From assembly GCA_963719225.1 (NCBI GenBank), contig CAVRAY010000001.1:3616001-3680000 (forward strand): a stretch of 64,000 bases of DNA. The letters run 5' to 3'. This document shows, piece after piece, positions 28,952 through 49,340 of this stretch. A program made the position numbers and the translations under genes. This stretch comes from Thermoanaerobaculia bacterium (GTDB taxonomy: Bacteria; Acidobacteriota; Thermoanaerobaculia; UBA5066). The notes beneath the pieces are model-generated. The model saw only the letters and a list, made by a program, of their open reading frames with translations, was not told the DNA's origin and did no database searches. The first letter of the stretch is position 1. Each line of letters begins with the position of its first letter.

Positions 28952-29028
28952 GGGGCTGTAGCTCAGTTTGGGAGAGCGCCTGAATCGCACTCAGGAGGTC
29001 GTCAGTTCGATCCTGATCAGCTCCACCA
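28952..29028 (+). tRNA. tRNA-Ala(CGC), integration target (attL)
   Basis: GGGGCTG/CAGCTCC acceptor stem with G3:U70; anticodon arm CCTGA-ATCGCAC-TCAGG; TTCGA T-loop; encoded CCA. Confidence 0.97.
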
Positions 29029-29051
29029 CTTTACGTAGCTTCCGAGAGCTC

Positions 29052-29074
29052 CGGTACAGCAAACGGTAACGGGT
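29052..29074 (+). promoter_or_regulatory. Putative integrase arm-type site (left arm; also at 47109-47131)
   Basis: CGGTACAGCAAACGGTAACGGGT matches the motifs at 31138 and 46946. Confidence 0.65.
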
Positions 29075-29117
29075 CGCGTGCTTGCGGTTTGGACCGGTTT
29101 CCGCTGAACTGAGAGCC

Positions 29118-29345
29118 ATGAAAAGCACGAAAACGAAGGCCGAGCCGCGTACGACGCGTGGCTCGCGTGACCTGAAGACCGCGCTCAAGAGAGCGGCCGC
29201 CGCGCTCGAGAAGGCGGCCATGGCCGCGCCCCGGACCCGCGGCTCTCGCGACCTGAAGGTAGAGATCGAGCGCGCGAAGAAGGCCGTCAAGAAGGCCACG
29301 GCGATCGCGCGGACGACACGCGGCTCTCGCGACCTGAAGAGCTGA
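29118..29345 (+). CDS. 75 aa basic protein with three RT(T)RGSRDLK repeats (copy 1)
   Basis: RGSRDLK codons differ only synonymously between repeats (CGT GGC TCG CGT vs CGC GGC TCT CGC). The one SNP seen between copies is silent (ATC/ATT). Confidence 0.75.
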   Translation: MKSTKTKAEPRTTRGSRDLKTALKRAAAALEKAAMAAPRTRGSRDLKVEIERAKKAVKKATAIARTTRGSRDLKS

Positions 29346-29376
29346 GCCGACTCCCCCTCTCTCATGGCCCGCTGGT

Positions 29377-30604
29377 CACGGCGCGTGCGAGGTGCAAGCG
29401 TGCGTGAGCGCACCCTCGCGCACGCGCCGTGCCCGCTAGCGACTCGACAGGAGGCTTCGCCGACGCCGAGGACACGCCCGAAGAGCACGGCCGGAGACAA
29501 CGCCCCCGGCGGCTCCGGCGAGAGGGGCTGGTGGCGCCGGCCGCGGCGGCAGCGCGCGTGCCGGGCCCCTCTTCCCCGGCCCTTCTCCCGGCACGCGCGC
29601 TGCAAACGCCGCTTGCCGATAAACGCGTTTATCGGCTCCGGTGCTTTTCATTTCCCGGCCGCGCGTGCGCGGCCGGGGGCACCCCTCTCGCCTCCGGGCG
29701 TCGCTTCGCTCGGCCGTTTACATAACGTGGCGCTATGTAAACCCGCCGGGGGCATTAAGGCGCGCGCGAATAGCGCGAGCTGCTTGAAGGCCTGTCATTG
29801 CGCGTGCTTTCTTCGCGCGCGTGCGTTTGCGGTCCTCGACGGGGCTGCGGTCCTCAACCCACGCGCGCGGCACGCTCGTGCCAGGCCGGGAGAGCGCGCG
29901 GGGCACGAAGGCACCGCGCGCGGCCTCCGGCCGCGCGCCGGAGGCGCGCAGCGCGCGAAATCTCTGGTGCTCCGGGGCGCGGCGCGAACCGTGCCGCGCG
30001 CAGGATCGAGGACGCGCAGGGACGAGAACCGCAGATGCCGCGCGCGAAGCGACGCACGGAGCGTGACGCGCCTACAGCGCCCGCGCCGAAGGCGCGCGCG
30101 AAAATTCTTCGCGCCGCTTCTCGAAGCCACGGATCTCGAGGAGGCCCCGGCGCCAAGCCCCCGCGCGCGCGAGTTGCTGCGCGCTACGGCGCGCAGCCTC
30201 AGCACATAGCGCTCGCGTTATGTGAAGGGCGCGAAGCGCCCCGGAGGCGTGCGGGGTGCCCCCGCGAAACGAAGTGAAGCGGGAAATGAAAGTGCCGGGG
30301 ACGGTAATAGGCCATTACCGGCCAGCGGCCGCGCGCGCAGCGCGTGGATGCAGCGCGCGTGACGGGCAGGGGAACGTGGGGCCCCGCCCGGCGCGCGCGC
30401 CGCAGAGCGCCCGGCGCCAACGCCCCGCACGCCGGAGCTCGCGCGCGCGGGGCGGATGGTGCGCCGGGTACGCCGAGAGGAAAGCCGATCAGCGCGGAGC
30501 AGTCGAGAGCCGGGAGCGCGGCGCGCCGCTTGCGCGAGAGCGCGACGACCGAGCACGTGTACTCGCGCGCGTAGGTGGTCGCGCGCGAGCCGCAGCAAGC
30601 GGCG
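29377..30604. repeat. Non-coding nested inverted-repeat/structured region of element A (copy 2 at 47434-48661)
   Basis: Diverged inverted pair 29512-29742 / 30203-30438; inner stem 29811-29874 / 29990-30049; flanking hairpins 29377-29431 and 30524-30604. Confidence 0.85.
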
Positions 30605-30658
30605 TGACGTCGCGGGCCGTCAGCGAGGGAAGTGCACTCCAAGCCGAGGCATCACGAA

Positions 30659-31048
30659 TCAGGCGCCGCGACTCTTCGCCCGGCGCTCGGCCAGCGCATC
30701 GATGATCTTGAAGACGGCCTTCTGGTCGTGCGGAGGCAGCTCGTCGAGTCGCTTGAGATGTTTCTGCCGCTGCACGCTCGTCGCGGGCGCCGCTCCCCCG
30801 CTGCGCTCCGGCGCCTTCTTGCGGCCGAGAAGAATGTCGGTCGAAACGTCGAGCGCGTCGGCGATCGCGACGAGGAGCTCGGGTGGCGGGGAAACTCCGC
30901 GCACCTCGTAATAGGTGATCGTCTGCTGCGGCACGCCAATCTTCTTGGCGAGCTCGGCCTGCGTCAGACCCTTCGCGATCCGGAAGCGCCGAATCCGGTC
31001 CCCGAGCGTCTCAGTATTGCCTGATTTCTTCTTCCGTTTCCGCGCCAT
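30659..31048 (-). CDS. XRE-family HTH repressor (copy 1)
   Basis: LGDRIRRFRIAKGLTQAELAKKIGVPQQTITYYE..P..LVAIADALDVSTDILLG. Confidence 0.92.
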   Translation of the reverse strand: MARKRKKKSGNTETLGDRIRRFRIAKGLTQAELAKKIGVPQQTITYYEVRGVSPPPELLVAIADALDVSTDILLGRKKAPERSGGAAPATSVQRQKHLKRLDELPPHDQKAVFKIIDALAERRAKSRGA

Positions 31049-31095
31049 TACCGCCGAGTTTAGGAGTGCTTCGGCAACACAAAGGCTAGCCGGGT

Positions 31096-31123
31096 TTGCC
31101 AGATTACATAAGACTTGTGTAAT
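31096..31123 (+). promoter_or_regulatory. Rightward promoter/operator of element A (copy 2 at 49153-49180)
   Basis: TTGCCA-16 nt-TGTAAT containing the palindrome ATTACA-N9-TGTAAT, divergent from the XRE gene. Confidence 0.65.
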
Positions 31124-31137
31124 CACGGAGGCATCAT

Positions 31138-31239
31138 CGGTACAGCAGGCGGTCAGGGGTATTTGCCCTAGGAAACGTGCTCACCCACTCGTAAGGCCTC
31201 GCTTTTTGGGGGAAAATGCTCGTGTCAGCCTTTATCGCA
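31138..31239 (+). promoter_or_regulatory. Right att arm of element A ending in the crossover core
   Basis: CGGTACAGCAGGCGGTCAGGGGT starts 96 bp before the ATCGCA core of CCTTT-ATCGCA. Sequence after the core (GACAGT) only partly resembles the tRNA (CTCAGG). Confidence 0.7.
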
Positions 31240-31311: not shown

Positions 31312-32430
31312 ATGTCCGAACAAGACAACGCATTGATGCGAATCGCCGTTAGCGAGGCGTCGAAGTGTGTGCCTGAGAATGGTGGCGCCCGTCCGCGCGT
31401 CGGCGTAGTCGTGGCAAAAGATGGCGAACTCCTCTGTTCAGCACATCGCGGCGAATTGAAACCTGGCGAACACGCAGAATTCACCGCCCTCGAAGGGAAG
31501 CTCGCAACGACCCCGGTAGCGGGGGCCACCCTCTATACGACCCTCGAGCCGTGCACATCTCGCAACCATCCGAAGGTGCCGTGTGCAGAGCGCCTTATCC
31601 AGAGAAAGATCGCGCGCGTGCTCATCGGGATGCTTGATCCAAATCCAAACATATCGGGCCGCGGTCTTCGTCGTCTGCGCGAAGCTAATATCGTTACTGA
31701 ACTCTTCCCATCAAACCTAATGGCGGAACTCGAGGAGCTCAATCGAGAGTTCATCGCAACCTTCCCCTCCGCTGGGGCGGCTCCTCGCGCGGCCGAGCTA
31801 GCCCCTCCGACTCCGTCCGGCCCGTCTCCGGTCGACTACTCGCCTATCGTCCTTACCGGCAGGGGCCAACAAGCGTCGGCCCTTTTTTCCCTAAAAGCAG
31901 GCCTCCACGTCTTCAAGCTATCGCATGACGGGATGGGCCATTTTGGTGTCTGGCTACTCGACACCCGGGGTAACAAGATCGACCTACTAGCGAATCAGAA
32001 CGGTAGCTTCGCAGGATCTAAGGCTGTAGCGATCTCATCACCAGACCAGTTCCTCGTGAACGTGGCGGCCGATGGCGCCTGGCTGGTGTCAGCCGTCGCG
32101 TCCGGGCCGTCCGCGCCCATCCCGGCATCTGAACTGCCACGCTTTGTTCCCGGCGCGGTGCAGTCGTCGCGGGGGGTGTTCGTGTACCACCTCACGAATC
32201 GGGGCGCCGAGATCTACGACCTGGCCCTCCAGCCGGCGCCATCCTTGTCCCTCTCTCTCTCTCACGATTCAATTCTCGCGAGCGGCCAGACTTTTCAGAT
32301 CACAGTCTCGGGACAGCAGCCATTGGCCCCAGTAACCGTCTCGCTTCGATACGTGACCTCTTCTGGGCGAGAGGCACTCCAACTCATCCACCTCCCGCAG
32401 GACCATAAGCGCGCCAACATGGTGCCCTAG
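31312..32430 (+). CDS. RibD-like Zn deaminase domain fused to beta-sandwich domains
   Basis: HAEFTALE, LYTTLEPC..PC and GMLDPNP motifs. No reductase domain; a Pro linker is followed by two beta-rich domains. Confidence 0.8.
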   Translation: MSEQDNALMRIAVSEASKCVPENGGARPRVGVVVAKDGELLCSAHRGELKPGEHAEFTALEGKLATTPVAGATLYTTLEPCTSRNHPKVPCAERLIQRKIARVLIGMLDPNPNISGRGLRRLREANIVTELFPSNLMAELEELNREFIATFPSAGAAPRAAELAPPTPSGPSPVDYSPIVLTGRGQQASALFSLKAGLHVFKLSHDGMGHFGVWLLDTRGNKIDLLANQNGSFAGSKAVAISSPDQFLVNVAADGAWLVSAVASGPSAPIPASELPRFVPGAVQSSRGVFVYHLTNRGAEIYDLALQPAPSLSLSLSHDSILASGQTFQITVSGQQPLAPVTVSLRYVTSSGREALQLIHLPQDHKRANMVP

Positions 32431-32589
32431 CACCTTGCGATTGCGTGGGCCAGCGGGAACGCGACAAGCGCTGGCTGTTCCGGGCGGCAAGTACCTTCGA
32501 ATGGCCTCGGTCCATCCAGACCCCGGTTCCGCGTACCGCCGCTGATTCGCACGCCTAGAGTGAGGTTCTGACACGAGAGGTGCATCCGG

Positions 32590-32612
32590 GGGCGGTGCTC
32601 GCTACACCGCCC
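32590..32612. terminator. GC-rich hairpin between convergent genes
   Basis: GGGCGGTG-N7-CACCGCCC; no clear U tract. Confidence 0.4.
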
Positions 32613-32636
32613 TTCGGGAATGAAAGCTGACCAACG

Positions 32637-33950
32637 TCAGCGTTCCGCCCGGGGCAAAGTGAGCGTAGCCCGGCACCCGCACATCCCCTCGCGGTTTCTG
32701 AGTGAGAGCGCACCACCATGAGCCTCCGCGATCTGGCGGGAGAGAACCAGGCCAATGCCAGACCCTTCCGCTTTTGTCGTGAAGAACGGGACGAACAGGT
32801 TCGCGCTTTCAAGCAAACCCGGGCCATCGTCATCCACCTTGATATCAACCTCGTCAGGCCTCAGCGACCAGCCGACGCGGACGCCACCACCAGTCTCGAG
32901 GGCGGCGTCTGCGGCGTTCCGCAGAAGGTTGATCAGGGCCTGCTCAATCTGGTCTACGTCGGCGAACACGTCCACGGGCGTGCTTTCCTCGACGTCGACC
33001 ATTAGCCGGGTTTCAAAGCCAGCAGCGCGTCGAACCACGGCGTCCACCGCCATGGGTGCTAAGCGTGGCTTCGGCAGCCGCGCGAGGCGCCCGTAGGCGT
33101 CCATGAAGCGGCCAAGCGATTCCACACGCGACGCAATGACGGCGAGCCCCCGGCCTACGTCTTCGTCCCAGTCCGCGGGCCGCGGGTGGCGCTTCATCGA
33201 GCGTTCCAGACTTCCCGCGATGGAGCGGATCGGCGTAAGCGAGTTGTTCAGCTCATGTCCCATGACGCGAATCAGACGCTGCCAGGCTTCGTGTTCCTCT
33301 TGATGGAGCGCCCGGGAGAGATCCGCGAGGACGACGAGAAGATGAACGCGTCCCTCCTGTCGGAATCGGCCTCTCTTCACACCCCAGCGCCCGCTTCCCC
33401 CTGGAAGTGCGAGGTCAAGCGTCGGCCGGTCGTCGCTCAGTGCATCGGAGAGCCCGATGTCGGAAGCGGTGCGACCGAGGAGCTGTTCCGCTGGCCGCCC
33501 GAGCAGTCGTTCGCCTGCTCTATTCACCAGACGAAGGGCGGGGCCTTCGTCGAACGCGAAGATTGCCACGTCCATTTCCGTCATCACCGTGCGCAGGAGG
33601 GCGTTCGCTTCCAGAGTTCCAAGTCTCTGTTCGCGGTAGGACTCCGCGAGTGCATTCACTTCGCCCGTGACTTCGGCGAGCGCGTCCCGACCGTCGACCC
33701 GCCCGCGAATCGAAGAATCACCCTCGCGGAGCGCTGAAAGGAGGTTCGCGAGAGTTCGGAGTGAATGCCGTACACGACCACGAACGGCCGCCGCAAACCC
33801 CAACCAGGAAGCCACCAGGGCGAGCGTGACTGCCACCTTGACGCCGACCCCTTGAGCCGTTGCGAAGAGAAGCGCCAGCGAGACGACGGTGGCGGGAGCC
33901 CCCGCGAGGAGCGCGAATGTAAGGACGTCCCTCTCATGCCCTCCTCTCAT
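32637..33950 (-). CDS. Membrane sensor histidine kinase (PAS, NtrY-like)
   Basis: Two TM helices; GHELNNSLTPI, NLLRNA, DDGPG, FFTTK..GSGIGL. Confidence 0.92.
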   Translation of the reverse strand: MRGGHERDVLTFALLAGAPATVVSLALLFATAQGVGVKVAVTLALVASWLGFAAAVRGRVRHSLRTLANLLSALREGDSSIRGRVDGRDALAEVTGEVNALAESYREQRLGTLEANALLRTVMTEMDVAIFAFDEGPALRLVNRAGERLLGRPAEQLLGRTASDIGLSDALSDDRPTLDLALPGGSGRWGVKRGRFRQEGRVHLLVVLADLSRALHQEEHEAWQRLIRVMGHELNNSLTPIRSIAGSLERSMKRHPRPADWDEDVGRGLAVIASRVESLGRFMDAYGRLARLPKPRLAPMAVDAVVRRAAGFETRLMVDVEESTPVDVFADVDQIEQALINLLRNAADAALETGGGVRVGWSLRPDEVDIKVDDDGPGLLESANLFVPFFTTKAEGSGIGLVLSRQIAEAHGGALSLRNREGMCGCRATLTLPRAER

Positions 33951-35350
33951 CGTGGGGGCAGCGGCAGGGGGGGTCGCGCGCCTCCCACCGCGGAAATGCC
34001 GTACCTCTCCAGCCTCCGGTAAAGCGCCCCGCGAGAGAGCCCCAGTGCATTCGCCGCTAGGCTGACGTTGTTCCCGAAGCGTGCGAGGGCCTTGCGGATG
34101 AGGTGGGCCTCGACGTCCTCAAGGCTCATGTCGTCGAGGGTCGGGCCCGGCCCGTACGCCGTCCTGAGCCCGAGATCGGCGACCCTGATCTTCTCCCCCG
34201 CCGCCATGAGAACCCCGCGCTCCACGGAATGATCCAGCTCGCGGACGTTCCCCGGCCACCGATAAGCCAACATGGCCTGAACCGCTTCAGGCTCGAAACC
34301 GGTCACCGCCTTTCGAGTCTTGCTGGCGTGACGTGAGAGAAAGAGGTGTGCGAGGAGGGGGATGTCCTCGTACCTGTCGCGAAGGGGCGGGATGGGAATC
34401 TCGACTGTATTGAGGCGGAAAAAAAGATCCTGCCGAAGTCGACCGGACGCGAGGTCCGCTCGGACGTCGGAATTGGTAGCCGAGAAGATCCGTACCGAGA
34501 CGCGCCGGGTTCGCGACGACCCGACCCGTTCAAATTCGCCGGTCTCGACGACCCGGAGGAGCTTCGGCTGGAGTGAGAGCGGGAGCTCGGCGATTTCATC
34601 GAGGAAGAGCGTGCCGCCGTCCGCAAGCTCAAACCGACCAACCCGATCCGACTTCGCGTCGGTAAACGCACCTCGGACGTGCCCGAAGAGCTCGCTCTCG
34701 AAGACGCCCTCGGGGAGGCCGCCCACGTTCACCGTCACGAGCGGCTGGTTGTTGGCGCGCGATGCGGCGTGAAGTGCGCGCGCGACGGCTCCCTTTCCGC
34801 TCCCGTTTTCGCCGGTGATGAGAACGTTCGCGTCGGAGGGGCCCACGCGAGCGATCAATTCAAGGGCCGGTCGCATCGCCTTGGACTCCGCGAGCAGGTC
34901 GGGGCGCCCTCCCTCGCGCAGCAGGCGGTTTTCTAACGCGAGCCTTTCGCCACGCCGAATCGTCCGCGAGAGTTCGGCCTGCGTCTTCAGAATCTGAAGC
35001 AGTCGCTCGTTTTCCCAAGGCTTCTGGACGAAGTCACGCGCCCCAAGCCGCATCGCTTCCACGGCCAGCCCCACGCTGCCCCAAGCGGTCATCACGACCA
35101 CCGGGAGCGTCGGGTCGACGGCGTGAATACTGGCGAGAAGACCCAGTCCTTCGCGCCCAGACGTCGTGTCTCGCGTGTAGTTCAAATCCGCGAGGAGAAC
35201 GTCGAAGTCGCGCGCTTCGAGCGCCGCGACGACACCGCCCGGCGAGCTGACGGTTTCGATTTCGAAGTCTTCTCCCTTGAGGAGCAGTCGTAGAGCTTCG
35301 ACGACGTCGTGCTGGTCGTCAGCGATCAAAAGGCGAGCGGGAACGTTCAT
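33947..35350 (-). CDS. Sigma54-dependent response regulator (NtrC family)
   Basis: REC domain, GENGSGK, ESELFGH..GAFTDA, WPGNVREL, C-terminal Fis-type HTH. Confidence 0.95.
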   Translation of the reverse strand: MNVPARLLIADDQHDVVEALRLLLKGEDFEIETVSSPGGVVAALEARDFDVLLADLNYTRDTTSGREGLGLLASIHAVDPTLPVVVMTAWGSVGLAVEAMRLGARDFVQKPWENERLLQILKTQAELSRTIRRGERLALENRLLREGGRPDLLAESKAMRPALELIARVGPSDANVLITGENGSGKGAVARALHAASRANNQPLVTVNVGGLPEGVFESELFGHVRGAFTDAKSDRVGRFELADGGTLFLDEIAELPLSLQPKLLRVVETGEFERVGSSRTRRVSVRIFSATNSDVRADLASGRLRQDLFFRLNTVEIPIPPLRDRYEDIPLLAHLFLSRHASKTRKAVTGFEPEAVQAMLAYRWPGNVRELDHSVERGVLMAAGEKIRVADLGLRTAYGPGPTLDDMSLEDVEAHLIRKALARFGNNVSLAANALGLSRGALYRRLERYGISAVGGARPPLPLPPR

Positions 35351-35378
35351 CGCTTTACAAAGGTTACTCGCGTCGCGT

Positions 35379-37787
35379 TCATTCGCCCCGGAGCGCGATT
35401 GCAGGGTCCACGCGCGTGGCCGGAAGGGCCGGAAGGACGCATGCAGCCCCGGCCATCACAACCAGTAGCGCGACCGTCGCAACGAATACCGAGCCATCTA
35501 GCGCGTTCACGCCGAAGAGAAAACTCGACAGGAAGCGGGTAAGGGCTGCGGCGCCCAAGACACCCACGACGGCACCAAGGAGAACGGGAATCATCCCCTG
35601 CCAGGCGATCAGGCGCACCACATCTCGTGGGAGTGCACCTAGTGCGAGCCGGATGCCGATCTCGTGTCGTCGTTCACCTACGCCGTGCGCGACGACGCCA
35701 TAGATTCCGATGCAGGCGAGAAGGATCGCCAGTGCCGCAAACCCAGTCAGGAGGCCTGTCCGGAGTTTCGGCTGGCTCAGGGAAAGGTCCCTCAGCTGTT
35801 GCAGGGTCATCACCCCGTGTATGGGCTGAGTTGGATCGACTTCAGCTGCCGCGCGTCTCACCGCAGATGTGAGCGACGAGGGATCGACGCTGCTCTTCAG
35901 GACGATCGTCATGAGCGACGCGGTCCGAGCGAAGAGCTTGGAGGCGTTCTGGCCATACGGGACATAGACGGTGGGGCGCGCTTCCTGATCGAGCCCTTGG
36001 GACCTCACATCGCCCACGACCCCCACGATCTCGCGCCAATCACCCGGGTCGTTCAGGCTAATTCGCTGACCCACCGGACTTCGGTCCGGGAAGTACCGAC
36101 GCGCGAGCGCCTGGTTCACGACGGCGACGTCCGGCGCCCCCGGACCATCGAGCGCAGTGAAAGCGCGCCCCTCCTGGACCGGGATCCCCAACACTCCGAA
36201 GTAGTCGGCGCTCACGACGCCATACTGGGCGACCCCTTCGGACCCCGTGTCGCGCGAACGCCCCGCCACGAGAAGGCCGGTGGAACCCATTCCGAGACTG
36301 AGAGGTATTGAGCTGCCCGCGGCCGCGAGCTTCACGCCGGGTACCACGGCGGTGCGCTCCAGAAGCCGGCGGAAGAAATCTGCTTGCCGCGCCCGGTCGG
36401 GATAGCGCGACTGTGGCAGCGCGACCCGATACGTCAGGACGTTAGATGGCTCGAATCCGAGAGCCACGCCCGAAAGGCGTGCGAGGCTCTTGAGAAAGAG
36501 GCCTGCCCCCACGACGAGGAGAATGGCGAGCGCCGTCTCGAAGCCAACCAGAAGGGCGCGCGCCGTCCGCCTTTCCCTGCTTGCTGTCGCTCGCCCGCCC
36601 TCTTTGAGCCCCTCTGCGGGCAAGTCCCGTGCGGCGTGGAAAGCGGGAAAGAGCCCGAACAGTACGGTGACGGCAATGGCAACGACGAGTGTGAAGAGAA
36701 ACACTGGGAGCTGAATGCCGACTTCGGGCATCCGCGGGAGATTTGGGTCGGCCGCCCTAAAGGCGGCCAGAGACCAAGTAGCCAGAAGAAGACCGAGTGC
36801 ACTGCCGGCGGCCGCGAGCAACGCGCTTTCCGTGAGGAGCTGGCGCACCAGTCGAAGCGGGCCCGCACCTAGCGCCGCGCGGATGGCGAATTCCCTCTGT
36901 CTCGCGGCCCCGCGCGCTAGAAGGAGGTGCGCGACGTTTGCACATGCGATCAGGAGAACGATGGCGACCGCTGCTCCCAAGGCGAGAAAGGCCGGACGAA
37001 ACTCACCGACGGAAGCCTCGCGCCAAGGCACGAGGACAGCGGCGAGTGGTGGGTCCTGATGGAAGTCCCGGGACGTCCCCACCATGAGAAGGTCCATCTC
37101 GGCCTGAGCGGCCTTGATGGAGATTCCTGGAGCGAGGCGGCCGTATGCACGGAGGTACGTCGTGTTTCGCGCCGAGCGATCGCTGGGCCCGAGGGCGAGC
37201 GGCAGGAGAAGGTCCGCACCAACAAAGTGAAATGAAGCGGGCATGACCGCCGCTACGACGTGCGGTTCGCCGTTAAGCAAGATCGTCTTCCCCAACAACG
37301 TCGTCTGCCCGCCGAATCGCCGCTGCCAGAGGCCGTCAGTGAGTACCACCGTCTTCGGCGCGCCGGGTCGGTCTTCATCGGGCCCGAAGAACTGACCAGA
37401 AGAAGGCGGAATCCCTAGAAGTGGGAAGAGTGAAGCCGACACCTTCGCGCCGACCACTCGCTCCGGCTCGCCCTCGCCGTTCAGCGTGACGCTGATGGTG
37501 CTGACGCCGGTGACGTTCGTCAGCGAGGTAAGACGATCCTTCCAGTCGAGAACGTCTGCGGGAGCCACGCCTGACCGTCCTGCCTTTGCATCAGAGCGGA
37601 AGATCTGGACGATTCTCTCGGAGTCGGCATAAGGGAGAGGCTTCAGGAGGACGCCGTTGACGACGCTGAACAGGGCCGCATTGGCGCCAATGCCGAGCGC
37701 AAGCGTCACGACTGATGCGACGGTAAACCCCGGAGCTCTGCTCAGGGAACGGAGAGCGTAGCGAAGGTCCTGAAGAAGCGCATTCAT
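35379..37787 (-). CDS. MacB/FtsX-type duplicated ABC permease (ADOP-like)
   Basis: LQDLRYALR..PGFT..TLALGIGAN, LLIACANVA, REFAIRAALGA, EIGIRLALGA, ALRGE end. Confidence 0.92.
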   Translation of the reverse strand: MNALLQDLRYALRSLSRAPGFTVASVVTLALGIGANAALFSVVNGVLLKPLPYADSERIVQIFRSDAKAGRSGVAPADVLDWKDRLTSLTNVTGVSTISVTLNGEGEPERVVGAKVSASLFPLLGIPPSSGQFFGPDEDRPGAPKTVVLTDGLWQRRFGGQTTLLGKTILLNGEPHVVAAVMPASFHFVGADLLLPLALGPSDRSARNTTYLRAYGRLAPGISIKAAQAEMDLLMVGTSRDFHQDPPLAAVLVPWREASVGEFRPAFLALGAAVAIVLLIACANVAHLLLARGAARQREFAIRAALGAGPLRLVRQLLTESALLAAAGSALGLLLATWSLAAFRAADPNLPRMPEVGIQLPVFLFTLVVAIAVTVLFGLFPAFHAARDLPAEGLKEGGRATASRERRTARALLVGFETALAILLVVGAGLFLKSLARLSGVALGFEPSNVLTYRVALPQSRYPDRARQADFFRRLLERTAVVPGVKLAAAGSSIPLSLGMGSTGLLVAGRSRDTGSEGVAQYGVVSADYFGVLGIPVQEGRAFTALDGPGAPDVAVVNQALARRYFPDRSPVGQRISLNDPGDWREIVGVVGDVRSQGLDQEARPTVYVPYGQNASKLFARTASLMTIVLKSSVDPSSLTSAVRRAAAEVDPTQPIHGVMTLQQLRDLSLSQPKLRTGLLTGFAALAILLACIGIYGVVAHGVGERRHEIGIRLALGALPRDVVRLIAWQGMIPVLLGAVVGVLGAAALTRFLSSFLFGVNALDGSVFVATVALLVVMAGAACVLPALPATRVDPAIALRGE

Positions 37788-37854
37788 CGTTCGCACCGGA
37801 TCGGGGCCGCGCCATCGGCGAAACTCGCGGTACGAATACGCTGAAATCGGAGGT

Positions 37855-38577
37855 TCACGCCCTGGTTCCCCCGGCCGTCTCCTCGACAATTCGTCCGTCG
37901 AAAAGGTGAACCGAACGATCTGCGTAACGAGCGTAGCGGGCGTCGTGCGTGACCATGCAAATCGTCGCGCCGCCCCGGTGGAGTTCCCGGAGGAGGTCCA
38001 TTACCGCCTCCCCACTCTTTGAGTCGAGATTTCCCGTTGGCTCGTCAGCAAGCAGGACAGCGGGATCGGTGGCGACCGCGCGCGCCACGGCGACGCGCTG
38101 CTGTTGACCGCCGGAGAGCTGAGGCGGGTAGTGGTTCGTGCGGTGCGCCATTCCCACACGCTCGAGCGCCTCCATCGCCTTCAACCGGCGCTCCGAAGGC
38201 GCCCTGCCCTGATACGTAAGCGGGAGCTCGACATTTTCGAGTACGGTGAGGTCCCCGATCAAATTGAAGCTCTGGAAGACGAAGCCGATCTGCCGGTTTC
38301 GAACTCTCGCGCGTTCAGTGAGCGAGAGCGAAGCGACCGGCGTGCCACTCAACCAGTATTGACCCGCCGATGGCGTATCGAGCAGGCCGAGCAATGAGAG
38401 TAGCGTCGACTTGCCGCAACCAGACGGCCCGGCGATCGCGAGGTACTCACCCTTCTGGACGTTCAGATGAACGCCCGAGAGGGCATGAGTTTCGAGCTCG
38501 TCCGTAAAGAAGACCTTCTTCACGCCCTCGAGCCGAATGAGAGGGGGCTCCGCCGCTCCTTGGGGATCCTGTGTCAC
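37855..38577 (-). CDS. ABC transporter ATP-binding protein (LolD/MacB type)
   Basis: GPSGCGKST, LSGGQQQR, LADEPTGNLD. Confidence 0.95.
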   Translation of the reverse strand: MTQDPQGAAEPPLIRLEGVKKVFFTDELETHALSGVHLNVQKGEYLAIAGPSGCGKSTLLSLLGLLDTPSAGQYWLSGTPVASLSLTERARVRNRQIGFVFQSFNLIGDLTVLENVELPLTYQGRAPSERRLKAMEALERVGMAHRTNHYPPQLSGGQQQRVAVARAVATDPAVLLADEPTGNLDSKSGEAVMDLLRELHRGGATICMVTHDARYARYADRSVHLFDGRIVEETAGGTRA

Positions 38578-38590
38578 GCGTCCCTCCTCA

Positions 38591-39844
38591 TCACTTGAGC
38601 GCGATCCTCGGAAAAGCGTCCCAGGCCGAGGTGTCTGAAAGGATCACCCGGTCGCCCTCTTTCAAGCCTTCGACGATCTCCACGTTCGAAACCGAGCTCC
38701 TGCCTAGCTTCACTTTGACTCTCTGAGCCTGGCGGCCGTCCGCAATCAAGCGGAAGAGCCCGACGACGCCCTGATCCTGTCCGAGCGAAGGGCGCCCCAC
38801 GTACAGGATGTCCCCCAGACGTTCAAGCTCGACGGTGCCTTCCACAGAGAGGTCGGGACGAGCACCCTTCGGCAACGGCTCCGTTGGCACGACGTCCACG
38901 GTTACGGTGCCGTTCTGCACGGCCGGGTCGATTCGCGAGACGCGCCCAGCAACGATGCCATTGCGCGTGTCAACAGTGGCGGGCAGGCCGATGGTGAGGT
39001 CCTTCGCCTGCGTCTCGGCGACCTTCAGCTCGGCCTTCAATCGGTCCTGGTTCGCGACACGCGCGAGATTCATGCCGGGCGTCACGCGCTGGCCGACCGC
39101 AACCGACACCTGTTGCAGGGTGCCCGCGATCCCCGCGCGGACATGCAAGGCATCGACCTGGCTACGCTTTAGGAGTGCGAGCGCGTGGAGCTGGGCAACG
39201 CGGGCTTCCTGAGCCGCGAGCTGCGCAGAAACCGATTCGGACACTATCGCCAGTCGCCGAGCCTCGAGTTCATTGCGGCGCGCCGCTTCCTCGGCGGTCA
39301 CGCGCGCCAATTTCACACTCAGATCGGCGAGGAGCCCTTGCCTGAACATCTCCTCGTCGACGTCGGCCTTCAGCTTCGCCTGCCGATTCTCAGATTCAAC
39401 GCGTGCAGCCGTGGTCCTCTCGTCGATGTTCTGGCGCTCAAGCGACACCTTCAGGTTTCGAAGCTCCGCTTCGGCGGCCTTCATCTGAAGTTCCGCGTCA
39501 CTCGCCGCGAGCCCCACTTCAGGGTTACTCATTTCGATGATGACCGTACCCGGCGTTACAACGGCACCGGGGAGGATGACGATTCGGTCGACTCGCGCGT
39601 CAGTGGTGGCGGGAATCCAAGAGACGTCTTCGGGGACCAGGGTTCCGGGGCCGCGTACCTGGCGGAGCATTGAGCCTCGTTTCACCGTGTCAATCCATAG
39701 TGCCGACCTCTCCACCCCGGGGAGTGCCGGCGTGAGCCGCGAGAGCCCCAGTGTGATCAGGCCGATGGCCGCAACGAGCAACGCACCCATTGCCAGGCGT
39801 CGCACCCGCACCCCCCGCGGATCTACCTCTCTCGCGATGTCCAC
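38591..39844 (-). CDS. Efflux periplasmic adaptor (HlyD/MacA-like)
   Basis: TM anchor, VRGPGTLVP, coiled coil, GRVSRIDPAV..GTVTVDV; probable GTG start giving MDIARE. Confidence 0.88.
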   Translation of the reverse strand: MDIAREVDPRGVRVRRLAMGALLVAAIGLITLGLSRLTPALPGVERSALWIDTVKRGSMLRQVRGPGTLVPEDVSWIPATTDARVDRIVILPGAVVTPGTVIIEMSNPEVGLAASDAELQMKAAEAELRNLKVSLERQNIDERTTAARVESENRQAKLKADVDEEMFRQGLLADLSVKLARVTAEEAARRNELEARRLAIVSESVSAQLAAQEARVAQLHALALLKRSQVDALHVRAGIAGTLQQVSVAVGQRVTPGMNLARVANQDRLKAELKVAETQAKDLTIGLPATVDTRNGIVAGRVSRIDPAVQNGTVTVDVVPTEPLPKGARPDLSVEGTVELERLGDILYVGRPSLGQDQGVVGLFRLIADGRQAQRVKVKLGRSSVSNVEIVEGLKEGDRVILSDTSAWDAFPRIALK

Positions 39845-39858
39845 CAGTTCCAGCAATA

Positions 39859-39873
39859 ACAACTCGCATGCCA
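39859..39873 (-). promoter_or_regulatory. Candidate sigma54 (-24/-12) promoter
   Basis: TGGCAT-GCGAG-TTGT versus consensus TGGCAC-N5-TTGC; upstream of an operon that encodes its own sigma54 activator. Confidence 0.55.
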
Positions 39874-39936
39874 CGACGAAGCAGCGGCTAAGAACCTGTG
39901 GCTGGACGCGTTGACGCGTTCTTCATTCCTTCCCAC

Positions 39937-39972
39937 TGTCCGAAAGTGGCCACCGGCGTCCGGAAGTGGACA
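39937..39972. promoter_or_regulatory. Tandem enhancer (UAS) candidate, TGTCC-N6-GGACA
   Basis: TGTCCGAAAGTGGCCA and CGTCCGGAAGTGGACA with 20 bp periodicity. Confidence 0.6.
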
Positions 39973-40268
39973 CAACTACTACGGCTCTCTGCGAGGCATG
40001 CAGCACTGTCTTTCGAAGGTCCTCCGGCACGGCGGGTAGCTCCAGCCATCGGAGGGCCTCGAGGCCAGGCGCGACGGCTTCGCCCGTTCGGCCACGAGGT
40101 CTCGGTCCGGGCGCCAGCCCCATTCGACGTTGCACGCTTAGGTAGACGTACCAGCCTTCCCTTTCAGTCACAACCTAGGACACATCGACCACCTCTGCTC
40201 TTAGCTGCTTCGCGTCGGAGACCCCGCGAGGAGTCCCGTCGGGCCGTAACCTGAATTGGATCGCCTTC

Positions 40269-41075
40269 TTACGGCTCGAATGCAGAGAAAGGTCGGTAGT
40301 TCGTCCCCGAGATCACTATGGAGGTTGCGCGCGCGGCGTCGGATGGAACAACCTCGAGGCCGTAGGAGCCCGCGCACCCCGAAAACCTAAGGGGCGTCCC
40401 TCTGGAAAGGCGTTCCCAGTCGTAGACCCGAAGCCTGAACAAGCATATGGGTACGGGCTTTCCTGAACCGCGGTCGACGGCGTCATCCCAGACGCATTCG
40501 TAAAGGCACTTCGCGTTTCTCGTCAAGACGGAATCAACCCTCCCGACGGCCGCGTTGTTCTTCAGCGTAGCCACAGCTCGCTTGAACATCTCCGGGTCGT
40601 CGACCGCGAACGGCGTACCGTCCCTGATGATGCCGGCCATGATCGGGCCCATCACCACGCGTGGCGATGCTTCTGGCAGAAAGGAGCGGTAAAGCGCCGA
40701 ATGGAAGCCGCGCACCCAGCGCCAGATGAAGCCCTTGAGATCGTCGCTCACTGCCCCGAGGCCTGGCGGTAGCTCCGACGGCGCGGAGAGCTTCGCTCTT
40801 CTCTTTGCTGCGGGCCGGGAGTGGCCCTGGAGAAGCTCGACCAGTTCCCCCATGACCTGGTCCGCTCCTGACTGGTTTTCGTTGCAAGACTTATGCGCTG
40901 GCAGGATGAGCGGCGGCGTGCGATCCGACGGCAGGAAAAGCGAATTCGGGGGAACGTGCTCGCGCGTCCAAGTCTTGTCGCCTCCCTTGGAGCCAATCGG
41001 AAGGCCGCAAAGGTAGCAGAAGGAAATCGTCTGCAAGGGCCGAAAATCTGCCTGCGCTCCCAGCCGAATCGACAT
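40269..41075 (-). CDS. HNH-endonuclease-like protein
   Basis: CYLCG..TREHVPP..PAHKSCN zinc/HNH pattern at the N-terminus. Confidence 0.7.
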   Translation of the reverse strand: MSIRLGAQADFRPLQTISFCYLCGLPIGSKGGDKTWTREHVPPNSLFLPSDRTPPLILPAHKSCNENQSGADQVMGELVELLQGHSRPAAKRRAKLSAPSELPPGLGAVSDDLKGFIWRWVRGFHSALYRSFLPEASPRVVMGPIMAGIIRDGTPFAVDDPEMFKRAVATLKNNAAVGRVDSVLTRNAKCLYECVWDDAVDRGSGKPVPICLFRLRVYDWERLSRGTPLRFSGCAGSYGLEVVPSDAARATSIVISGTNYRPFSAFEP

Positions 41076-41106
41076 CTTCAGGCGGTTCGAAGCGAGAACT
41101 TTCGCC

Positions 41107-42183: not shown

Positions 42184-42234
42184 CGATTACTCTTCAAGAA
42201 ACCTCGTTAGTGGGGCGCCTACCGATGCGAGGCA

Positions 42235-42873
42235 GTGAGGGGCGAAGTGGATTCTAAGGAACGCGCGTTGATCACGGGTCTGCTCGGCCGGGTCCAGGCC
42301 CTGGAGTTCGATGAGCACCACGCTCTGAGCCTACTGATTCTGCTCCGGCGCCACGCGGCGTCGAAGGCACCGCTGGCCGCGGAGCTCGGCGACTTCGTCG
42401 CACACCGCGAGCGAGACCGTGGCCTTCTGCTTCGTTTCTTGAAGCAGGTCCAGGGAGCGTTACTACCCGGCGGACAGGCACCGACTCACTACGACACGCC
42501 GGTGAGTGTTCCCGTTCTTCACGATCAACTGAACGCGCTCTTCGCGGAGCTCTCGATGTCTCCGATCCGCTTCGAGCATGCAGAGTGCCTGGCCCTGGTC
42601 GTCGCGGCGCTCCTCGACCGCGTGGAATTCCCGGTTCACGGGGCGCGGAGATCGAGGTTGCTCTTCGGATTTAATGCTCAGTTTGCTGGCCTGTTCGGCG
42701 AGGTCCCCCTTCTTTCAGCCATCGTCGCATTCCCCGTCATGGCGGTCCGCAACCGTTTCTTCGAATCCCCGTTCGATGACCCCGAAACCTACTGGTTCCC
42801 TGACCGCCGCTTCACCGTTTCAGCGGCATGCCACGACGGAACCGTCGGCTTCGCACAGAGCCCAGCGCTATGA
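42235..42873 (+). CDS. Hypothetical protein (possible divergent HEPN-like)
   Basis: 212 aa, helical, ELGDFVAHRERDRG; ATGA-coupled to the next gene. Confidence 0.55.
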   Translation: MRGEVDSKERALITGLLGRVQALEFDEHHALSLLILLRRHAASKAPLAAELGDFVAHRERDRGLLLRFLKQVQGALLPGGQAPTHYDTPVSVPVLHDQLNALFAELSMSPIRFEHAECLALVVAALLDRVEFPVHGARRSRLLFGFNAQFAGLFGEVPLLSAIVAFPVMAVRNRFFESPFDDPETYWFPDRRFTVSAACHDGTVGFAQSPAL

Positions 42874-44525: not shown

Positions 44526-44549
44526 TGGTTAGGGGAAGCAGCGCCGCCC

Positions 44550-45666: not shown

Positions 45667-45770
45667 GGGCGGATTATGACCCACTGACTTGAGGCCGTCT
45701 GCCACGACCGGGATGAGCCCAGGGCTGGCCCCAGCGTCGCTTCTCCCGCTTCCGGGGGCTACCGCCGGGC

Positions 45771-45798: not shown

Positions 45799-45897
45799 TT
45801 TGTTCCGCACGATGTGGAGTTCTACTGTTCCCCGCCGGGCTCAATTGCCGCTTGACACGATTCATGCAGAAGCGCCCCAGCGGGCAGGAAACGCACC

Positions 45898-46956
45898 GTG
45901 GCCTGGTTGATGAGGCGAAACGACCGCGGGGGCGGGTGGTACGTCTGCTTCCATACGGCGGGCGGGAAGGAAGTCCGACGGGCGGCCGGAAAGTCACGCC
46001 GAACAGCCGAGCGGATCAAGGCGAAGATCGAGACCCAGCTACGCGAAAGCAAGTTCTTCAACCGCGACCAGACATCGACGTGGACGCTTGAGCAGCTATC
46101 GGCTCTCTACCTCGAGCGTCTGGCCCGGCTTCGGCCGCGGTCGGCGCGGTGGCGGCGAGAGATGTACAGGCAGGTGCTCCGAGCCCTCGGCAGTGAGCTC
46201 CTCATCGAGGAAATCGAACTATCCACGCTTGACGCTTACGTGGAGAGACGGCGCGGGGAAGGAAAAGCGCCTTCGACGATCAATAGGGAACTGTCGGTCC
46301 TGCGCCATTCTCTGCATCTCGCGGCGCGCTGGAAGACGGAAACGAATCTCTCCCGCTACAGGCTCGCGGACTGGGAGCCGCTGCGTGAATCTCAGGACGC
46401 GCGCCAGGCCGTGTTCCTGACGGCCGAGCAGGTTGCGCGCGTGCTTGGCGCGGCCCACGGACGCGCGGCGGGAGGTGGACTGAACGAACGCCAGGGCGAG
46501 GCCGTGATCCGGCTCGCACTCGAGACCGGTGCGCGGCTCGGGGAAGTCCTAGGTCTCTCCTGGGCTGATCTGGATTCCAAAGGCGTGACCCGGATTCGAA
46601 CCGAGAAGAATGGTCCGGACCGGTGGGTCCAGCTCAATGAGTCGACCGTGCAGCTCCTCGAGTCGTTCCGCGATCAGCGAAACGGGAGCGGCCTCATCTT
46701 CCCGAGCGCGCTGACGGGCGCACAGCGTGTAGATATCCGCCGCTTCTGGCACGCGGTTCGGAAGATCGCGAACGTCGAGCACATCCGCTTTCACGATCTC
46801 CGGCACACCGCGGCCTCCGAGATGCTTCGTCGCGGCTTCCTGCTGCGTGAGGTGCAGTACGTCCTGGGCCATTCTTCGGCCCGGATGACGGAGCGATATG
46901 CTCACTTCGCTCCGACGTTCAAGGCGCCGAAAGCTCTGTCCTGGGCGGTACCGTAA
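45898..46956 (+). CDS. int: Tyrosine integrase with N-terminal arm-binding-like domain
   Basis: TGARLGE, TEKNG, FHDLRHT, LGHSS..MTERYAH catalytic set; ends 84 bp before the att repeat. Confidence 0.95.
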   Translation: MAWLMRRNDRGGGWYVCFHTAGGKEVRRAAGKSRRTAERIKAKIETQLRESKFFNRDQTSTWTLEQLSALYLERLARLRPRSARWRREMYRQVLRALGSELLIEEIELSTLDAYVERRRGEGKAPSTINRELSVLRHSLHLAARWKTETNLSRYRLADWEPLRESQDARQAVFLTAEQVARVLGAAHGRAAGGGLNERQGEAVIRLALETGARLGEVLGLSWADLDSKGVTRIRTEKNGPDRWVQLNESTVQLLESFRDQRNGSGLIFPSALTGAQRVDIRRFWHAVRKIANVEHIRFHDLRHTAASEMLRRGFLLREVQYVLGHSSARMTERYAHFAPTFKAPKALSWAVP

Positions 46957-47090
46957 ACGGTCAGGGGTTCCTGTCTCGGCTGCGCGCTGAGACGCTCGAA
47001 AGACCCCGCGTTTTCGGGCCAAACACCCCCGTTGTCCTTTATCGCACTCAGGAGGTCGTCAGTTCGATCCTGATCAGCTCCACCACTTTA
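46946..47090 (+). repeat. Right arm of B plus tRNA-Ala 3' fragment (internal att junction)
   Basis: CGGTACCGTAAACGGTCAGGGGT starts 95 bp before the ATCGCAC core, which begins the 50 bp tRNA repeat. Confidence 0.85.
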
Positions 47091-47174
47091 CGTAGCTTCC
47101 GAGAGCTCCGGTACAGCAAACGGTAACGGGTCGCGTGCTTGCGGTTTGGACCGGTTTCCGCTGAACTGAGAGCC

Positions 47175-47402
47175 ATGAAAAGCACGAAAACGAAGGCCGA
47201 GCCGCGTACGACGCGTGGCTCGCGTGACCTGAAGACCGCGCTCAAGAGAGCGGCCGCCGCGCTCGAGAAGGCGGCCATGGCCGCGCCCCGGACCCGCGGC
47301 TCTCGCGACCTGAAGGTAGAGATCGAGCGCGCGAAGAAGGCCGTCAAGAAGGCCACGGCGATTGCGCGGACGACACGCGGCTCTCGCGACCTGAAGAGCT
47401 GA
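47175..47402 (+). CDS. 75 aa RGSRDLK-repeat basic protein (copy 2)
   Basis: Same protein sequence as 29118-29345. Confidence 0.75.
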   Translation: MKSTKTKAEPRTTRGSRDLKTALKRAAAALEKAAMAAPRTRGSRDLKVEIERAKKAVKKATAIARTTRGSRDLKS

Positions 47403-48715
47403 GCCGACTCCCCCTCTCTCATGGCCCGCTGGTCACGGCGCGTGCGAGGTGCAAGCGTGCGTGAGCGCACCCTCGCGCACGCGCCGTGCCCGCTAGCGAC
47501 TCGACAGGAGGCTTCGCCGACGCCGAGGACAGGCCCGAAGAGCACGGCCGGAGACAACGCCCCCGGCGGCTCCGGCGAGAGGGGCTGGTGGCGCCGGCCG
47601 CGGCGGCAGCGCGCGTGCCGGGCCCCTCTTCCCCGGCCCTTCTCCCGACACGCGCGCTGCAAACGCCGCTTGCCGATAAACGCGTTTATCGGCTCCGGTG
47701 CTTTTCATTTCCCGGCCGCGCGTGCGCGGCCGGGGGCACCCCTCTCGCCTCCGGGCGTCGCTTCGCTCGGCCGTTTACATAACGTGGCGCTATGTAAACC
47801 CGCCGGGGGCATTAAGGCGCGCGCGAATAGCGCGAGCTGCTTGAAGGCCTGTCATTGCGCGTGCTTTCTTCGCGCGCGTGCGTTTGCGGTCCTCGACGGG
47901 GCTGCGGTCCTCAACCCACGCGCGCGGCACGCTCGTGCCAGGCCGGGAGAGCGCGCGGGGCACGAAGGCACCGCGCGCGGCCTCCGGCCGCGCGCCGGAG
48001 GCGCGCAGCGCGCGAAATCTCTGGTGCTCCGGGGCGCGGCGCGAACCGTGCCGCGCGCAGGATCGAGGACGCGCAGGGACGAGAACCGCAGATGCCGCGC
48101 GCGAAGCGACGCACGGAGCGTGACGCGCCTACAGCGCCCGCGCCGAAGGCGCGCGCGAAAATTCTTCGCGCCGCTTCTCGAAGCCACGGATCTCGAGGAG
48201 GCCCCGGCGCCAAGCCCCCGCGCGCGCGAGTTGCTGCGCGCTACGGCGCGCAGCCTCAGCACATAGCGCTCGCGTTATGTGAAGGGCGCGAAGCGCCCCG
48301 GAGGCGTGCGGGGTGCCCCCGCGAAACGAAGTGAAGCGGGAAATGAAAGTGCCGGGGACGGTAATAGGCCATTACCGGCCAGCGGCCGCGCGCGCAGCGC
48401 GTGGATGCAGCGCGCGTGACGGGCAGGGGAACGTGGGGCCCCGCCCGGCGCGCGCGCCGCAGAGCGCCCGGCGCCAACGCCCCGCACGCCGGAGCTCGCG
48501 CGCGCGGGGCGGATGGTGCGCCGGGTACGCCGAGAGGAAAGCCGATCAGCGCGGAGCAGTCGAGAGCCGGGAGCGCGGCGCGCCGCTTGCGCGAGAGCGC
48601 GACGACCGAGCACGTGTACTCGCGCGCGTAGGTGGTCGCGCGCGAGCCGCAGCAAGCGGCGTGACGTCGCGGGCCGTCAGCGAGGGAAGTGCACTCCAAG
48701 CCGAGGCATCACGAA

Positions 48716-49105
48716 TCAGGCGCCGCGACTCTTCGCCCGGCGCTCGGCCAGCGCATCGATGATCTTGAAGACGGCCTTCTGGTCGTGCGGAGGCAGCTCG
48801 TTGAGTCGCTTGAGATGTTTCTGCCGCTGCACGCTCGTCGCGGGCGCCGCTCCCCCGCTGCGCTCCGGCGCCTTCTTGCGGCCGAGAAGAATGTCGGTCG
48901 AAACGTCGAGCGCGTCGGCGATCGCGACGAGGAGCTCGGGTGGCGGGGAAACTCCGCGCACCTCGTAATAGGTGATCGTCTGCTGCGGCACGCCAATCTT
49001 CTTGGCGAGCTCGGCCTGCGTCAGACCCTTCGCGATCCGGAAGCGCCGAATCCGGTCCCCGAGCGTCTCAGTATTGCCTGATTTCTTCTTCCGTTTCCGC
49101 GCCAT
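48716..49105 (-). CDS. XRE-family HTH repressor (copy 2)
   Basis: Same as copy 1 except D-to-N in RLNELP. Confidence 0.92.
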   Translation of the reverse strand: MARKRKKKSGNTETLGDRIRRFRIAKGLTQAELAKKIGVPQQTITYYEVRGVSPPPELLVAIADALDVSTDILLGRKKAPERSGGAAPATSVQRQKHLKRLNELPPHDQKAVFKIIDALAERRAKSRGA

Positions 49106-49290
49106 TACCGCCGAGTTTAGGAGTGCTTCGGCAACACAAAGGCTAGCCGGGTTTGCCAGATTACATAAGACTTGTGTAATCACGGAGGCATCATCGGTAC
49201 AGCAGGCGGTCAGGGGTATTTGCCCTAGGAAACGTGCTCACCCACTCGTAAGGCCTCGCTTTTTGGGGGAAAATGCTCGTGTCAGCCTTT

Positions 49291-49340
49291 ATCGCACTCA
49301 GGAGGTCGTCAGTTCGATCCTGATCAGCTCCACCACTTTA
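49291..49340 (+). repeat. attR: displaced tRNA-Ala 3' end
   Basis: 50 bp identical to 28984-29033, followed by unrelated host-like sequence. Confidence 0.92.

What the first reader, a model, noticed from the sequence alone, without database searches (positions are those of the whole stretch)
29512..30438. Two inverted, diverged ~235 nt modules with compensatory base changes inside mini-element A
Seen: 29512-29742 aligns with the reverse complement of 30203-30438, with blocks in the same order: GCTCCGGCG, TGGCGCCGG, a long GC hairpin, GCCGCT, an AT-rich hairpin, TTTCATTTCCCG, CGGGGGCACCCC, CGCCTCCGGG, GCTTCGC and ACATAACG..CGCTATGT. The closing stem covaries: GGCGAGAGGGG/CCCCTCTCGCC versus GGCGTGCGGGG/CCCCGCACGCC. 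Internal hairpins keep pairing while changing sequence (GCCGATAAAC/GTTTATCGGC versus CGGTAAT/ATTACCG). Inference: selection is on a multi-branch single-stranded fold, either an undescribed ncRNA or a folded ssDNA origin, transfer or recombination substrate. I do not recognise it as a known family.
Basis: partly seen in the sequence, partly recalled or inferred. Interest (0 to 1): 0.85.

Follow-up and report, generated by a model that had tools for sequence, protein, structure and literature searches.

The report
Split-arm Xer site in folded DNA
A small mobile element carries two mirror-image stretches predicted to fold as single-stranded DNA, each showing the two halves of the chromosome-unlinking (Xer/dif) site on separate hairpins, likely so that a recombinase can join copies of the element; related folds recur in mobile elements of several bacterial phyla.

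Summary
In detail: 29512-29742 matches the reverse complement of 30204-30438 (73%), and 35 homologous modules covary. The modules are larger than described (29502-29753, 30162-30449). No Rfam match.

Each module holds two Xer-type cores. P2 is the host's dif left (XerC) arm twice around a self-complementary centre. X is the right (XerD) arm twice around a 6-11 nt loop. A gene-blind metagenome scan gave 64 matches; 13 of 20 distinct P2 centres are perfect palindromes (chance 1/64), which hairpin stability cannot explain but a 3-nt strand swap between copies would.

The modules belong to XRE / primase-helicase / PRK01287 'XerC' / Rhs elements. 26 of 81 such loci carry paired cores (controls 0-2); 14 of them fold like CTXphi attP instead. 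Here they sit in a 2.25-kb gene-poor satellite at tRNA-Ala, present twice.

Best reading: a split-arm, folded-ssDNA Xer recombination site for self-recombination (0.55). No crossover at these modules was seen; a priming site is the main rival.

The parts
28952..29028 (+). tRNA-Ala(CGC), integration target; its 3' part is repeated at 47041-47090 and 49291-49340
28984..31239 (.). Mini-element A, 2256 bp, no integrase or primase of its own; ends in the att core only (31232-31239), without the tRNA 3' repeat
   Evidence: att-flanked relatives
29118..29345 (+). 75-aa basic ORF with three TRGSRDL repeats; optional in relatives; no family
29366..30618 (.). Whole imperfect inverted duplication; triloop polarity flips near 29935
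29502..29753 (-). Left module (predicted folding strand -): outer helix P0 29502-29512/29743-29753, stem P1 29517-29527/29682-29692, long hairpin 29549-29603, hairpin P3 29654-29677
29615..29636 (.). P2 core, left: dif left-arm (XerC-type) motif CCGATAA twice around the 6-bp palindrome ACGCGT
29717..29741 (-). X core, left: dif right-arm (XerD-type) motif twice around a 7-nt centre; A.C on the + strand, G.T on the - strand
30162..30449 (+). Right module (predicted folding strand +): P0 30162-30173/30438-30449, P1 30246-30256/30423-30433
30204..30223 (+). X core, right (8-nt centre)
30302..30320 (.). P2 core, right (arm variant CCGGTAA; 7-nt centre, 3+1+3 self-complementary with one wobble)
30659..31048 (-). 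XRE/Cro-CI helix-turn-helix gene; replaced by other DNA in some relatives
45898..46956 (+). Tyrosine integrase of the 18-kb tRNA-Ala island; likely mobilises the mini-element in trans; not the PRK01287 enzyme (40 bits)
47041..49296 (.). Mini-element B, 99.8% identical to A, flanked by tRNA 3' repeats; modules at 47559-47810 and 48219-48506

Best explanation
Each module is likely a recombination site read as folded single-stranded DNA, which presents an XerC-type arm (P2) and an XerD-type arm (X) on two separate hairpins and would let a Xer-family recombinase exchange one strand between identical copies of the element. Shown: the covarying fold, its strand bias, the arm identities with the host's dif-like site, the self-complementary P2 centre, and the link to primase-helicase/XerC/Rhs elements. 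Inferred: replication running outward from between the modules (the element's DnaG/MCM-like protein, in trans for this satellite) displaces the - strand on the left and the + strand on the right, so each strand gets its own site. Cleavage after the P2 arm frees a centre whose first three bases must pair with the last three of a second copy, hence the palindrome. X, with a 6-11 nt centre and only two end pairs, would be the structural partner, as XerD is for CTXphi. The result would be release, multimer resolution or tandem insertion of element copies, not integration at dif. Whether host XerCD or the element's PRK01287 enzyme acts is open.
For: GNA mini-hairpins are far more stable as DNA than as RNA (PMC13037366, passages). 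Arms: the host has one CCGATAA-N6-TTATGT site near the GC-skew turn; the motif occurs in 25 of 61 phylum genomes, once in 24 of them. P2 centre: 51 of 64 matches, 13 of 20 distinct centres palindromic though not asked for; X centres 2 of 29, end pairs 24, 23 and 6 of 29. Degenerate modules keep AA-N6(palindrome)-TT. Family: 26 of 81 primase-helicase/XerC loci carry paired cores against 1 in reversed and 0-2 in shuffled sequence; in all 12 distinct inter-pairing sites the three overlap bases beside the XerD-type arm pair, the CTXphi attP layout (PMC3442271, passages). The neighbouring recombinase passes NF002331 (410.8 > 371 bits) and keeps the catalytic motifs checked. One Enterobacter plasmid lineage has a site that reads as a deletion between the two predicted cut points.
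Against: No crossover at P2 or X was seen: module truncations are scattered, with one ending just past P2, and the joints listed for 8 runs include none there. P0 and P1 stay compensated across both cores, so exchange between unlike copies is rare. P2 centres share nothing with the host dif centre or with X centres. Recombinases 95-100% identical sit beside canonical or GC-rich degenerate arms. Only 7 of 64 gene-blind matches have the primase-helicase in their (mostly short) locus and 4 the recombinase. No primase-helicase was found with this query in several genomes that carry the mini-element (G004, G006, G008, G017, G027). The Enterobacter case is one event at about 85% identity. A C-C' or D-D' site is not a canonical XerCD substrate.
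Confidence: 0.55

Rival explanations
1. The pair is the element's origin: two single-strand initiation (priming) sites on opposite strands, read by the DnaG/MCM-like protein, as ssiA/ssiB are in IncQ plasmids; the Xer-like arms are accessory.
For: Inverted pair, each folding on the strand a fork from the centre would displace; lies just before XRE/primase-helicase; it is the constant content of the satellite; GNA mini-hairpins occur at G4 and ssiA priming sites (PMC13037366, passages); a GTCA(C/T) motif lies near P2 in 29 of 41 distinct gene-blind modules against 1 on the other strand.
Against: Does not explain dif-type arms with 6-8 bp spacing, the palindromic P2 centre or the CTX-like form in 14 loci; modules also occur singly and beside phage or other integrase genes.
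Confidence: 0.2
2. The modules are structured RNAs transcribed outward from the centre that dimerise through the palindromic P2 loop.
For: Strong covariation; full palindromy needs a second copy to pair, as kissing loops do (recalled); the RNA fold is also stable; CUUCG-type loops could be RNA tetraloops.
Confidence: 0.1
3. P2 is a telomere-resolvase-type site: a recombinase dimer cuts both strands with a 6-bp stagger and seals hairpin ends, giving a linear hairpin-capped replicon.
For: Symmetric arms and a fully palindromic 6-bp centre; a primase-helicase and a tyrosine recombinase are encoded together.
Against: P2 is buried inside two enclosing helices; 7-nt centres occur; elements are chromosomal tandem arrays or circles; the CTX-like relatives have no C-C' site; the enzyme is XerC-sized.
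Confidence: 0.08
4. The arms only bind Xer-type proteins or resist SSB and nucleases, protecting or segregating displaced ssDNA, with no strand exchange.
For: No junction found at the cores; arms degenerate in some modules while the fold stays.
Against: Binding alone does not need a sequence-variable yet always palindromic centre, nor the 3-bp overlap pairing in 12 of 12 CTX-like sites.
Confidence: 0.07

Closest known systems
CTXphi attP(+) and CTX-type IMEX (PMC3442271, PMC5357621; passages read)
   Same: Xer arms reconstituted by folding of one strand; one arm predicted catalytic, the other structural; two cores about 100 nt apart; 14 related primase-helicase/XerC loci show the same inter-site fold.
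   Different: In the window the arms pair within each core (C-C', D-D') inside a multibranch fold; the centres do not match host dif; the elements are at tRNA-Ala or rhs loci; two inverted modules, one per strand.
Integron attC sites (PMC4792948, introduction read)
   Same: Structure conserved over sequence, strand bias, an AAC at the inner end of the X arm in most modules, position behind toxin-immunity cassettes.
   Different: No R-box/L-box stem with extrahelical bases; the recombinase is far below the IntI cut-off (103 vs 265 bits) and colinear with XerC.
dif, cer and psi Xer sites (PMC2731167, PMC3025954, PMC5357621; passages read)
   Same: Same arm motifs and 6-8 bp spacing; cer has a core plus about 180 bp of accessory DNA.
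   Different: Those are duplex C-centre-D sites; here like arms are paired and the flanking DNA is a covarying fold.
SymE-associated 'Prim-Hel' islands (PMC1891008, section 13 and passages read)
   Same: Same gene set: DnaG-type primase fused to an MCM-like helicase, cHTH, Rhs/haemagglutinin, restriction-modification cargo.
   Different: The passages read name the genes only; no cis-acting fold or Xer site is mentioned, and 'recombinase' and 'integrase' do not occur in the main text.
IncQ ssiA/ssiB and G4 priming hairpins (PMC13037366, passages; the IncQ layout is recalled)
   Same: GNA mini-hairpins; signals on single strands next to a primase gene.
   Different: Those are about 40 nt and carry no Xer arms.

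Membership tests
CTX-type IMEX attP | Two inverted XerC/XerD cores that pair with each other in ssDNA | tested here: not met
   Window cores pair internally; met only by 14 related loci
CTX-type IMEX attP | Overlap homologous to host dif on the XerC side | tested here: not met
   P2 centres ACGCGT and TGGCCTA against TATTTA
CTX-type IMEX attP | Integration at dif | tested here: not met
   Host dif candidate at C1:2,037,568; modules at C1:1.43, 3.46, 3.65 and 3.66 Mb, at tRNA-Ala or Rhs loci
CTX-type IMEX attP | Arms of XerC and XerD type on a strand-biased fold | tested here: met
   (sequence level only)
CTX-type IMEX attP | Single strand exchange catalysed by XerC | not testable with these tools
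   needs biochemistry
Integron attC | R and L boxes on one stem with extrahelical bases | tested here: not met
   Separate short hairpins
Integron attC | Cognate IntI integrase | tested here: not met
   TIGR02249 103-119 bits, cut-off 265
Integron attC | AAC crossover triplet | tested here: inconclusive
   Present at the X arm in most modules and in degenerate modules; X centres starting with T or A are common in other lineages
dif/cer/psi duplex sites | XerC arm - 6 to 8 bp - XerD arm | tested here: not met
   The only C..D match in the genome is the dif candidate; module cores are C-C' and D-D'
Telomere-resolvase site | Symmetric site with self-complementary centre | tested here: met
   P2
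Telomere-resolvase site | Linear hairpin-ended replicon and resolvase gene | tested here: inconclusive
   Only integrated arrays and one circular record seen; no dedicated search for a resolvase
Single-strand initiation (ssi) sites | Primer synthesis at the fold | not testable with these tools
   needs a priming assay
Rfam RNA families | Match to a covariance model | tested here: not met
   Window: tRNA only; 10 loci at E up to 5: 8 matches, none on a module
Prim-Hel / PRK01287 elements (as source of the module) | Homologous module next to primase-helicase and NF002331 genes | tested here: met
   Own genome C1:1,425,660-1,432,280 and relatives

The most novel reading that the evidence does not exclude
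A widespread, undescribed class of folded-ssDNA recombination sites: primase-helicase/XerC elements across at least five phyla amplify, excise and re-insert polymorphic toxin-immunity cassettes by Xer-type exchange at hairpins. In one architecture the XerC and XerD arms are split onto separate hairpins and copies swap strands through a palindromic loop, an intermediate between dif, CTXphi attP and integron attC. Gene-poor tRNA satellites such as this one parasitise the system.
Probability: 0.3. Interest if true: 0.9.

Novelty: new variant of a known kind. Interest (0 to 1): 0.74.

Why it matters
Folded-ssDNA substrates of tyrosine recombinases are known mainly from CTXphi and integrons. A split-arm version, plus a CTX-like version in the same element family, would give a natural series for how duplex Xer sites became structure-read sites. 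It would also supply a cis-acting mechanism for the tandem primase/XerC/Rhs arrays seen from Acidobacteriota to E. coli (57 of 5426 genomes, up to 6 places each), which can be tested in laboratory E. coli.

Tried and rejected
Known RNA family: none. blastn of the region against plasmids and phages: no match. Element ends at X or inversion between the two X cores: rejected, since P0 pairs across X and homology runs on for variable lengths. P2 x X or P2 x dif exchange: centres do not match. Modules as terminal inverted repeats: in own and related loci both lie inside the unit, between toxin cassettes and XRE. Expression: four RNA runs held only as contigs, covering 9-23 of 30 bins at low depth, cannot show strand or level. 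Viral scan with a looser pattern: 47 matches, mostly AT-rich chance; 9 palindromic, all one phage-like family. The exact P2+X pattern hit only 2 of 401 phylum genomes. The helicase domain had no sequence match among solved structures, so 'MCM-like' rests on PMC1891008 and the Walker A motif. The basic ORF had no Pfam, NCBIfam or Atlas hit. No covariance model was built; profile HMMs and patterns were used, so diverged modules are undercounted. Repeats in the Enterobacter loci that I first noted as iterons precede traM in a related plasmid and are more likely oriT-related. Earlier findings of the scan: none returned. Ten paper searches listed no description of these sites; the library lacks most subscription papers and no supplements were read, so tables of RNA/ssDNA motif surveys could hold the motif.

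Full report
Observation. An outer helix extends them to 29502-29753 and 30162-30449, inside an inverted duplication of about 29366-30618. Rfam has no match.

Setting in the window. The pair lies in a 2256-bp unit that starts in the 3' half of tRNA-Ala(CGC) and is repeated at 47041-49296 with 4 differences. An 18-kb island with cargo and a tyrosine integrase lies between the copies. Similar units of about 1.3-2.3 kb, with tRNA 3' repeats and without an integrase inside, sit at tRNA-Ala(CGC) or (GGC) in several genomes of the genus. The basic ORF and the HTH gene are optional; the folded region, in two cases only half of it, is what they share. Relatives carry the labels Thermoanaerobaculia or Holophagales. 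The query matched 80 of 101 related genomes at E <= 0.001, many only weakly. These tallies and those include G061 (and G066 in the relatives), flagged unpublished; no claim needs them.

Source of the modules. The own genome has another pair at C1:1,425,660-1,426,680, between an Rhs gene with cargo and an XRE / 1051-aa primase / recombinase / Rhs-fragment block, and a single module behind Rhs pieces at C1:3,457,520. The primase has CHC2 and Toprim domains and a C-terminal P-loop region, matching the 'Prim-Hel' of PMC1891008 (section 13 and passages read). The recombinase passes NF002331/PRK01287 and not the integron model. Relatives show tandem units with the module pair between toxin cassettes and XRE. 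The same gene block forms tandem arrays in Enterobacter plasmids and at an E. coli rhs locus, and one 8758-bp circular record matches a single unit, though it could be a collapsed repeat.

Structure and strand. In 35 modules, 23 of 60 pairs change on both sides and very few on one side. In the window the polarity flips near 29935: the - strand folds on the left, the + strand on the right. GNA mini-hairpins are a DNA feature (PMC13037366, passages). The folding strands are antisense to the flanking genes and no promoter-like site was found. The window's own left module is one of the energy exceptions.

The two cores. The genome has one CCGATAA-N6-TTATGT site, at C1:2,037,572 near the GC-skew maximum (2,098,827), taken as dif. 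The motif occurs in 25 of 61 phylum genomes, once in 24, and agrees with published dif tables (PMC2731167, PMC3025954, passages). P2 is its left arm twice; X is its right arm twice. A scan of metagenome contigs for P2 plus X, blind to genes and to the centres, gave 62 loci and 64 matches, two loci being the same contig. 51 of 64 P2 centres, 13 of 20 distinct ones, are perfect palindromes; 58 of 64 fold better on the same strand. The innermost pair cannot form in a hairpin, so a second copy must be the partner. Seven-base centres read 3+1+3. X centres vary from 6 to 11 nt and pair only at two end positions. This is what a 3-nt strand swap at P2 with a structural X would give (inference from tyrosine-recombinase chemistry as summarised in PMC5357621 and PMC4792948, passages and introduction read).

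Across phyla. Among 77 primase-helicase loci and 4 plasmid loci, 26 of 81 carry paired cores against 0-2 in controls (several loci are close kin and many contigs are too short). Records labelled Deltaproteobacteria, Polyangiaceae, Riflebacteria, Comamonadaceae and Acidobacteriota have the P2+X form, some with the same junction layout in unrelated sequence. Fourteen loci, mostly Gammaproteobacteria, instead have D..C' and C..D' cores that pair with each other; in 12 of 12 distinct cases the three overlap bases on the D side pair, while the C side falls off 11, 7, 4. That is the CTXphi attP layout (PMC3442271, passages), but the overlaps are GC-rich and differ among elements, which points to self-recombination rather than to dif. 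Three Enterobacter plasmid records share one D-centre-D' site that reads as loss of the inner loop at the predicted cut points; this is one event.

Results against. No junction maps to P2 or X in this family. Enclosing helices stay paired across both cores. Near-identical recombinases neighbour canonical and degenerate arms. Only 7 of 64 gene-blind matches have the primase-helicase in view; others sit by restriction-modification genes, terminase or portal genes, another primase, small integrases or Rhs/Tox-REase cassettes, which suggests a host factor or a general use. The primase-helicase was found in 20 of 101 relatives and not in several mini-element carriers. RNA data were uninformative.

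Verdict. The feature works like a folded-ssDNA Xer attachment site but fails the membership tests for CTX-type attP, attC and dif/cer. I found no description of it in ten searches of an incomplete library. Fold, strand and arms are shown at sequence level; binding, cleavage, the enzyme and the purpose are inferred. Confidence 0.55; priming origin 0.2; RNA 0.1.

Noticed in passing
window 29118-29345: Small Lys/Arg/Ala-rich ORF with three TRGSRDL repeats; frame kept in relatives, 22 homologues, none in a known family.
   Followed up: partly
window 31232-31239: Copy A ends in the att core without the tRNA 3' repeat and runs into cargo; related sequences in two runs continue into the tRNA repeat here, so a deletion or secondary-site event is likely.
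   Followed up: partly
window 29054-29059 and 31140-31145: A short GTACAG-containing direct repeat near both ends of the mini-element and its relatives, likely arm sites of the tRNA integrase.
   Followed up: partly
window 29513-29516 and 29693-29695: Nearly invariant CTCC/TCC beside stem P1 gives a GGA/GGA internal loop on the folding strand, reminiscent of a DNA (GGA)2 motif (recalled).
   Followed up: no
window 31312-45810: Island cargo: deaminase, two-component system, ABC exporter, SIR2-like protein, PIN/DUF433 toxin-antitoxin pair.
   Followed up: no
G000:C1:2037568-2037595: Candidate chromosomal dif site near the GC-skew maximum.
   Followed up: yes
L045:9646-9900, L066:4440-4770, L071, L078, L105: Degenerate modules with GC-rich arms whose X hairpin reads like a minimal attC core (AAC..GTT) while P2 keeps a palindromic centre.
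   Followed up: partly
L262:7356-7600, L269:4000-4480: In Enterobacter plasmids the Xer-type site is followed by about 200 nt that precede traM in a related plasmid, probably an oriT (nic resemblance recalled), hinting at mobilisation by F-like plasmids.
   Followed up: partly
L271:5290-5380: An E. coli CDI plasmid has the CTX-like fold right behind cdiA with no primase or XerC gene annotated in the 10 kb shown.
   Followed up: no
L272 (E. coli NZ_CP196708.1): Four tandem XRE-SymE / primase / XerC / Rhs-fragment units in view at the rhs locus beside narZ, each with a core after xerC.
   Followed up: partly
L198, L199, L204, L205 (viral contigs, about position 10001): A phage-like family, one member with a lambda-type portal gene, carries the P2+X module with centre GAGCTC.
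   Followed up: no
L263:4990-5070: Six 11-bp direct repeats between the toxin cassette and XRE in a Paraburkholderia element, possibly origin iterons.
   Followed up: no
L098:9825 and 11710: Two inverted X cores with identical 6-bp centres, the one case where inversion between modules looks possible.
   Followed up: no
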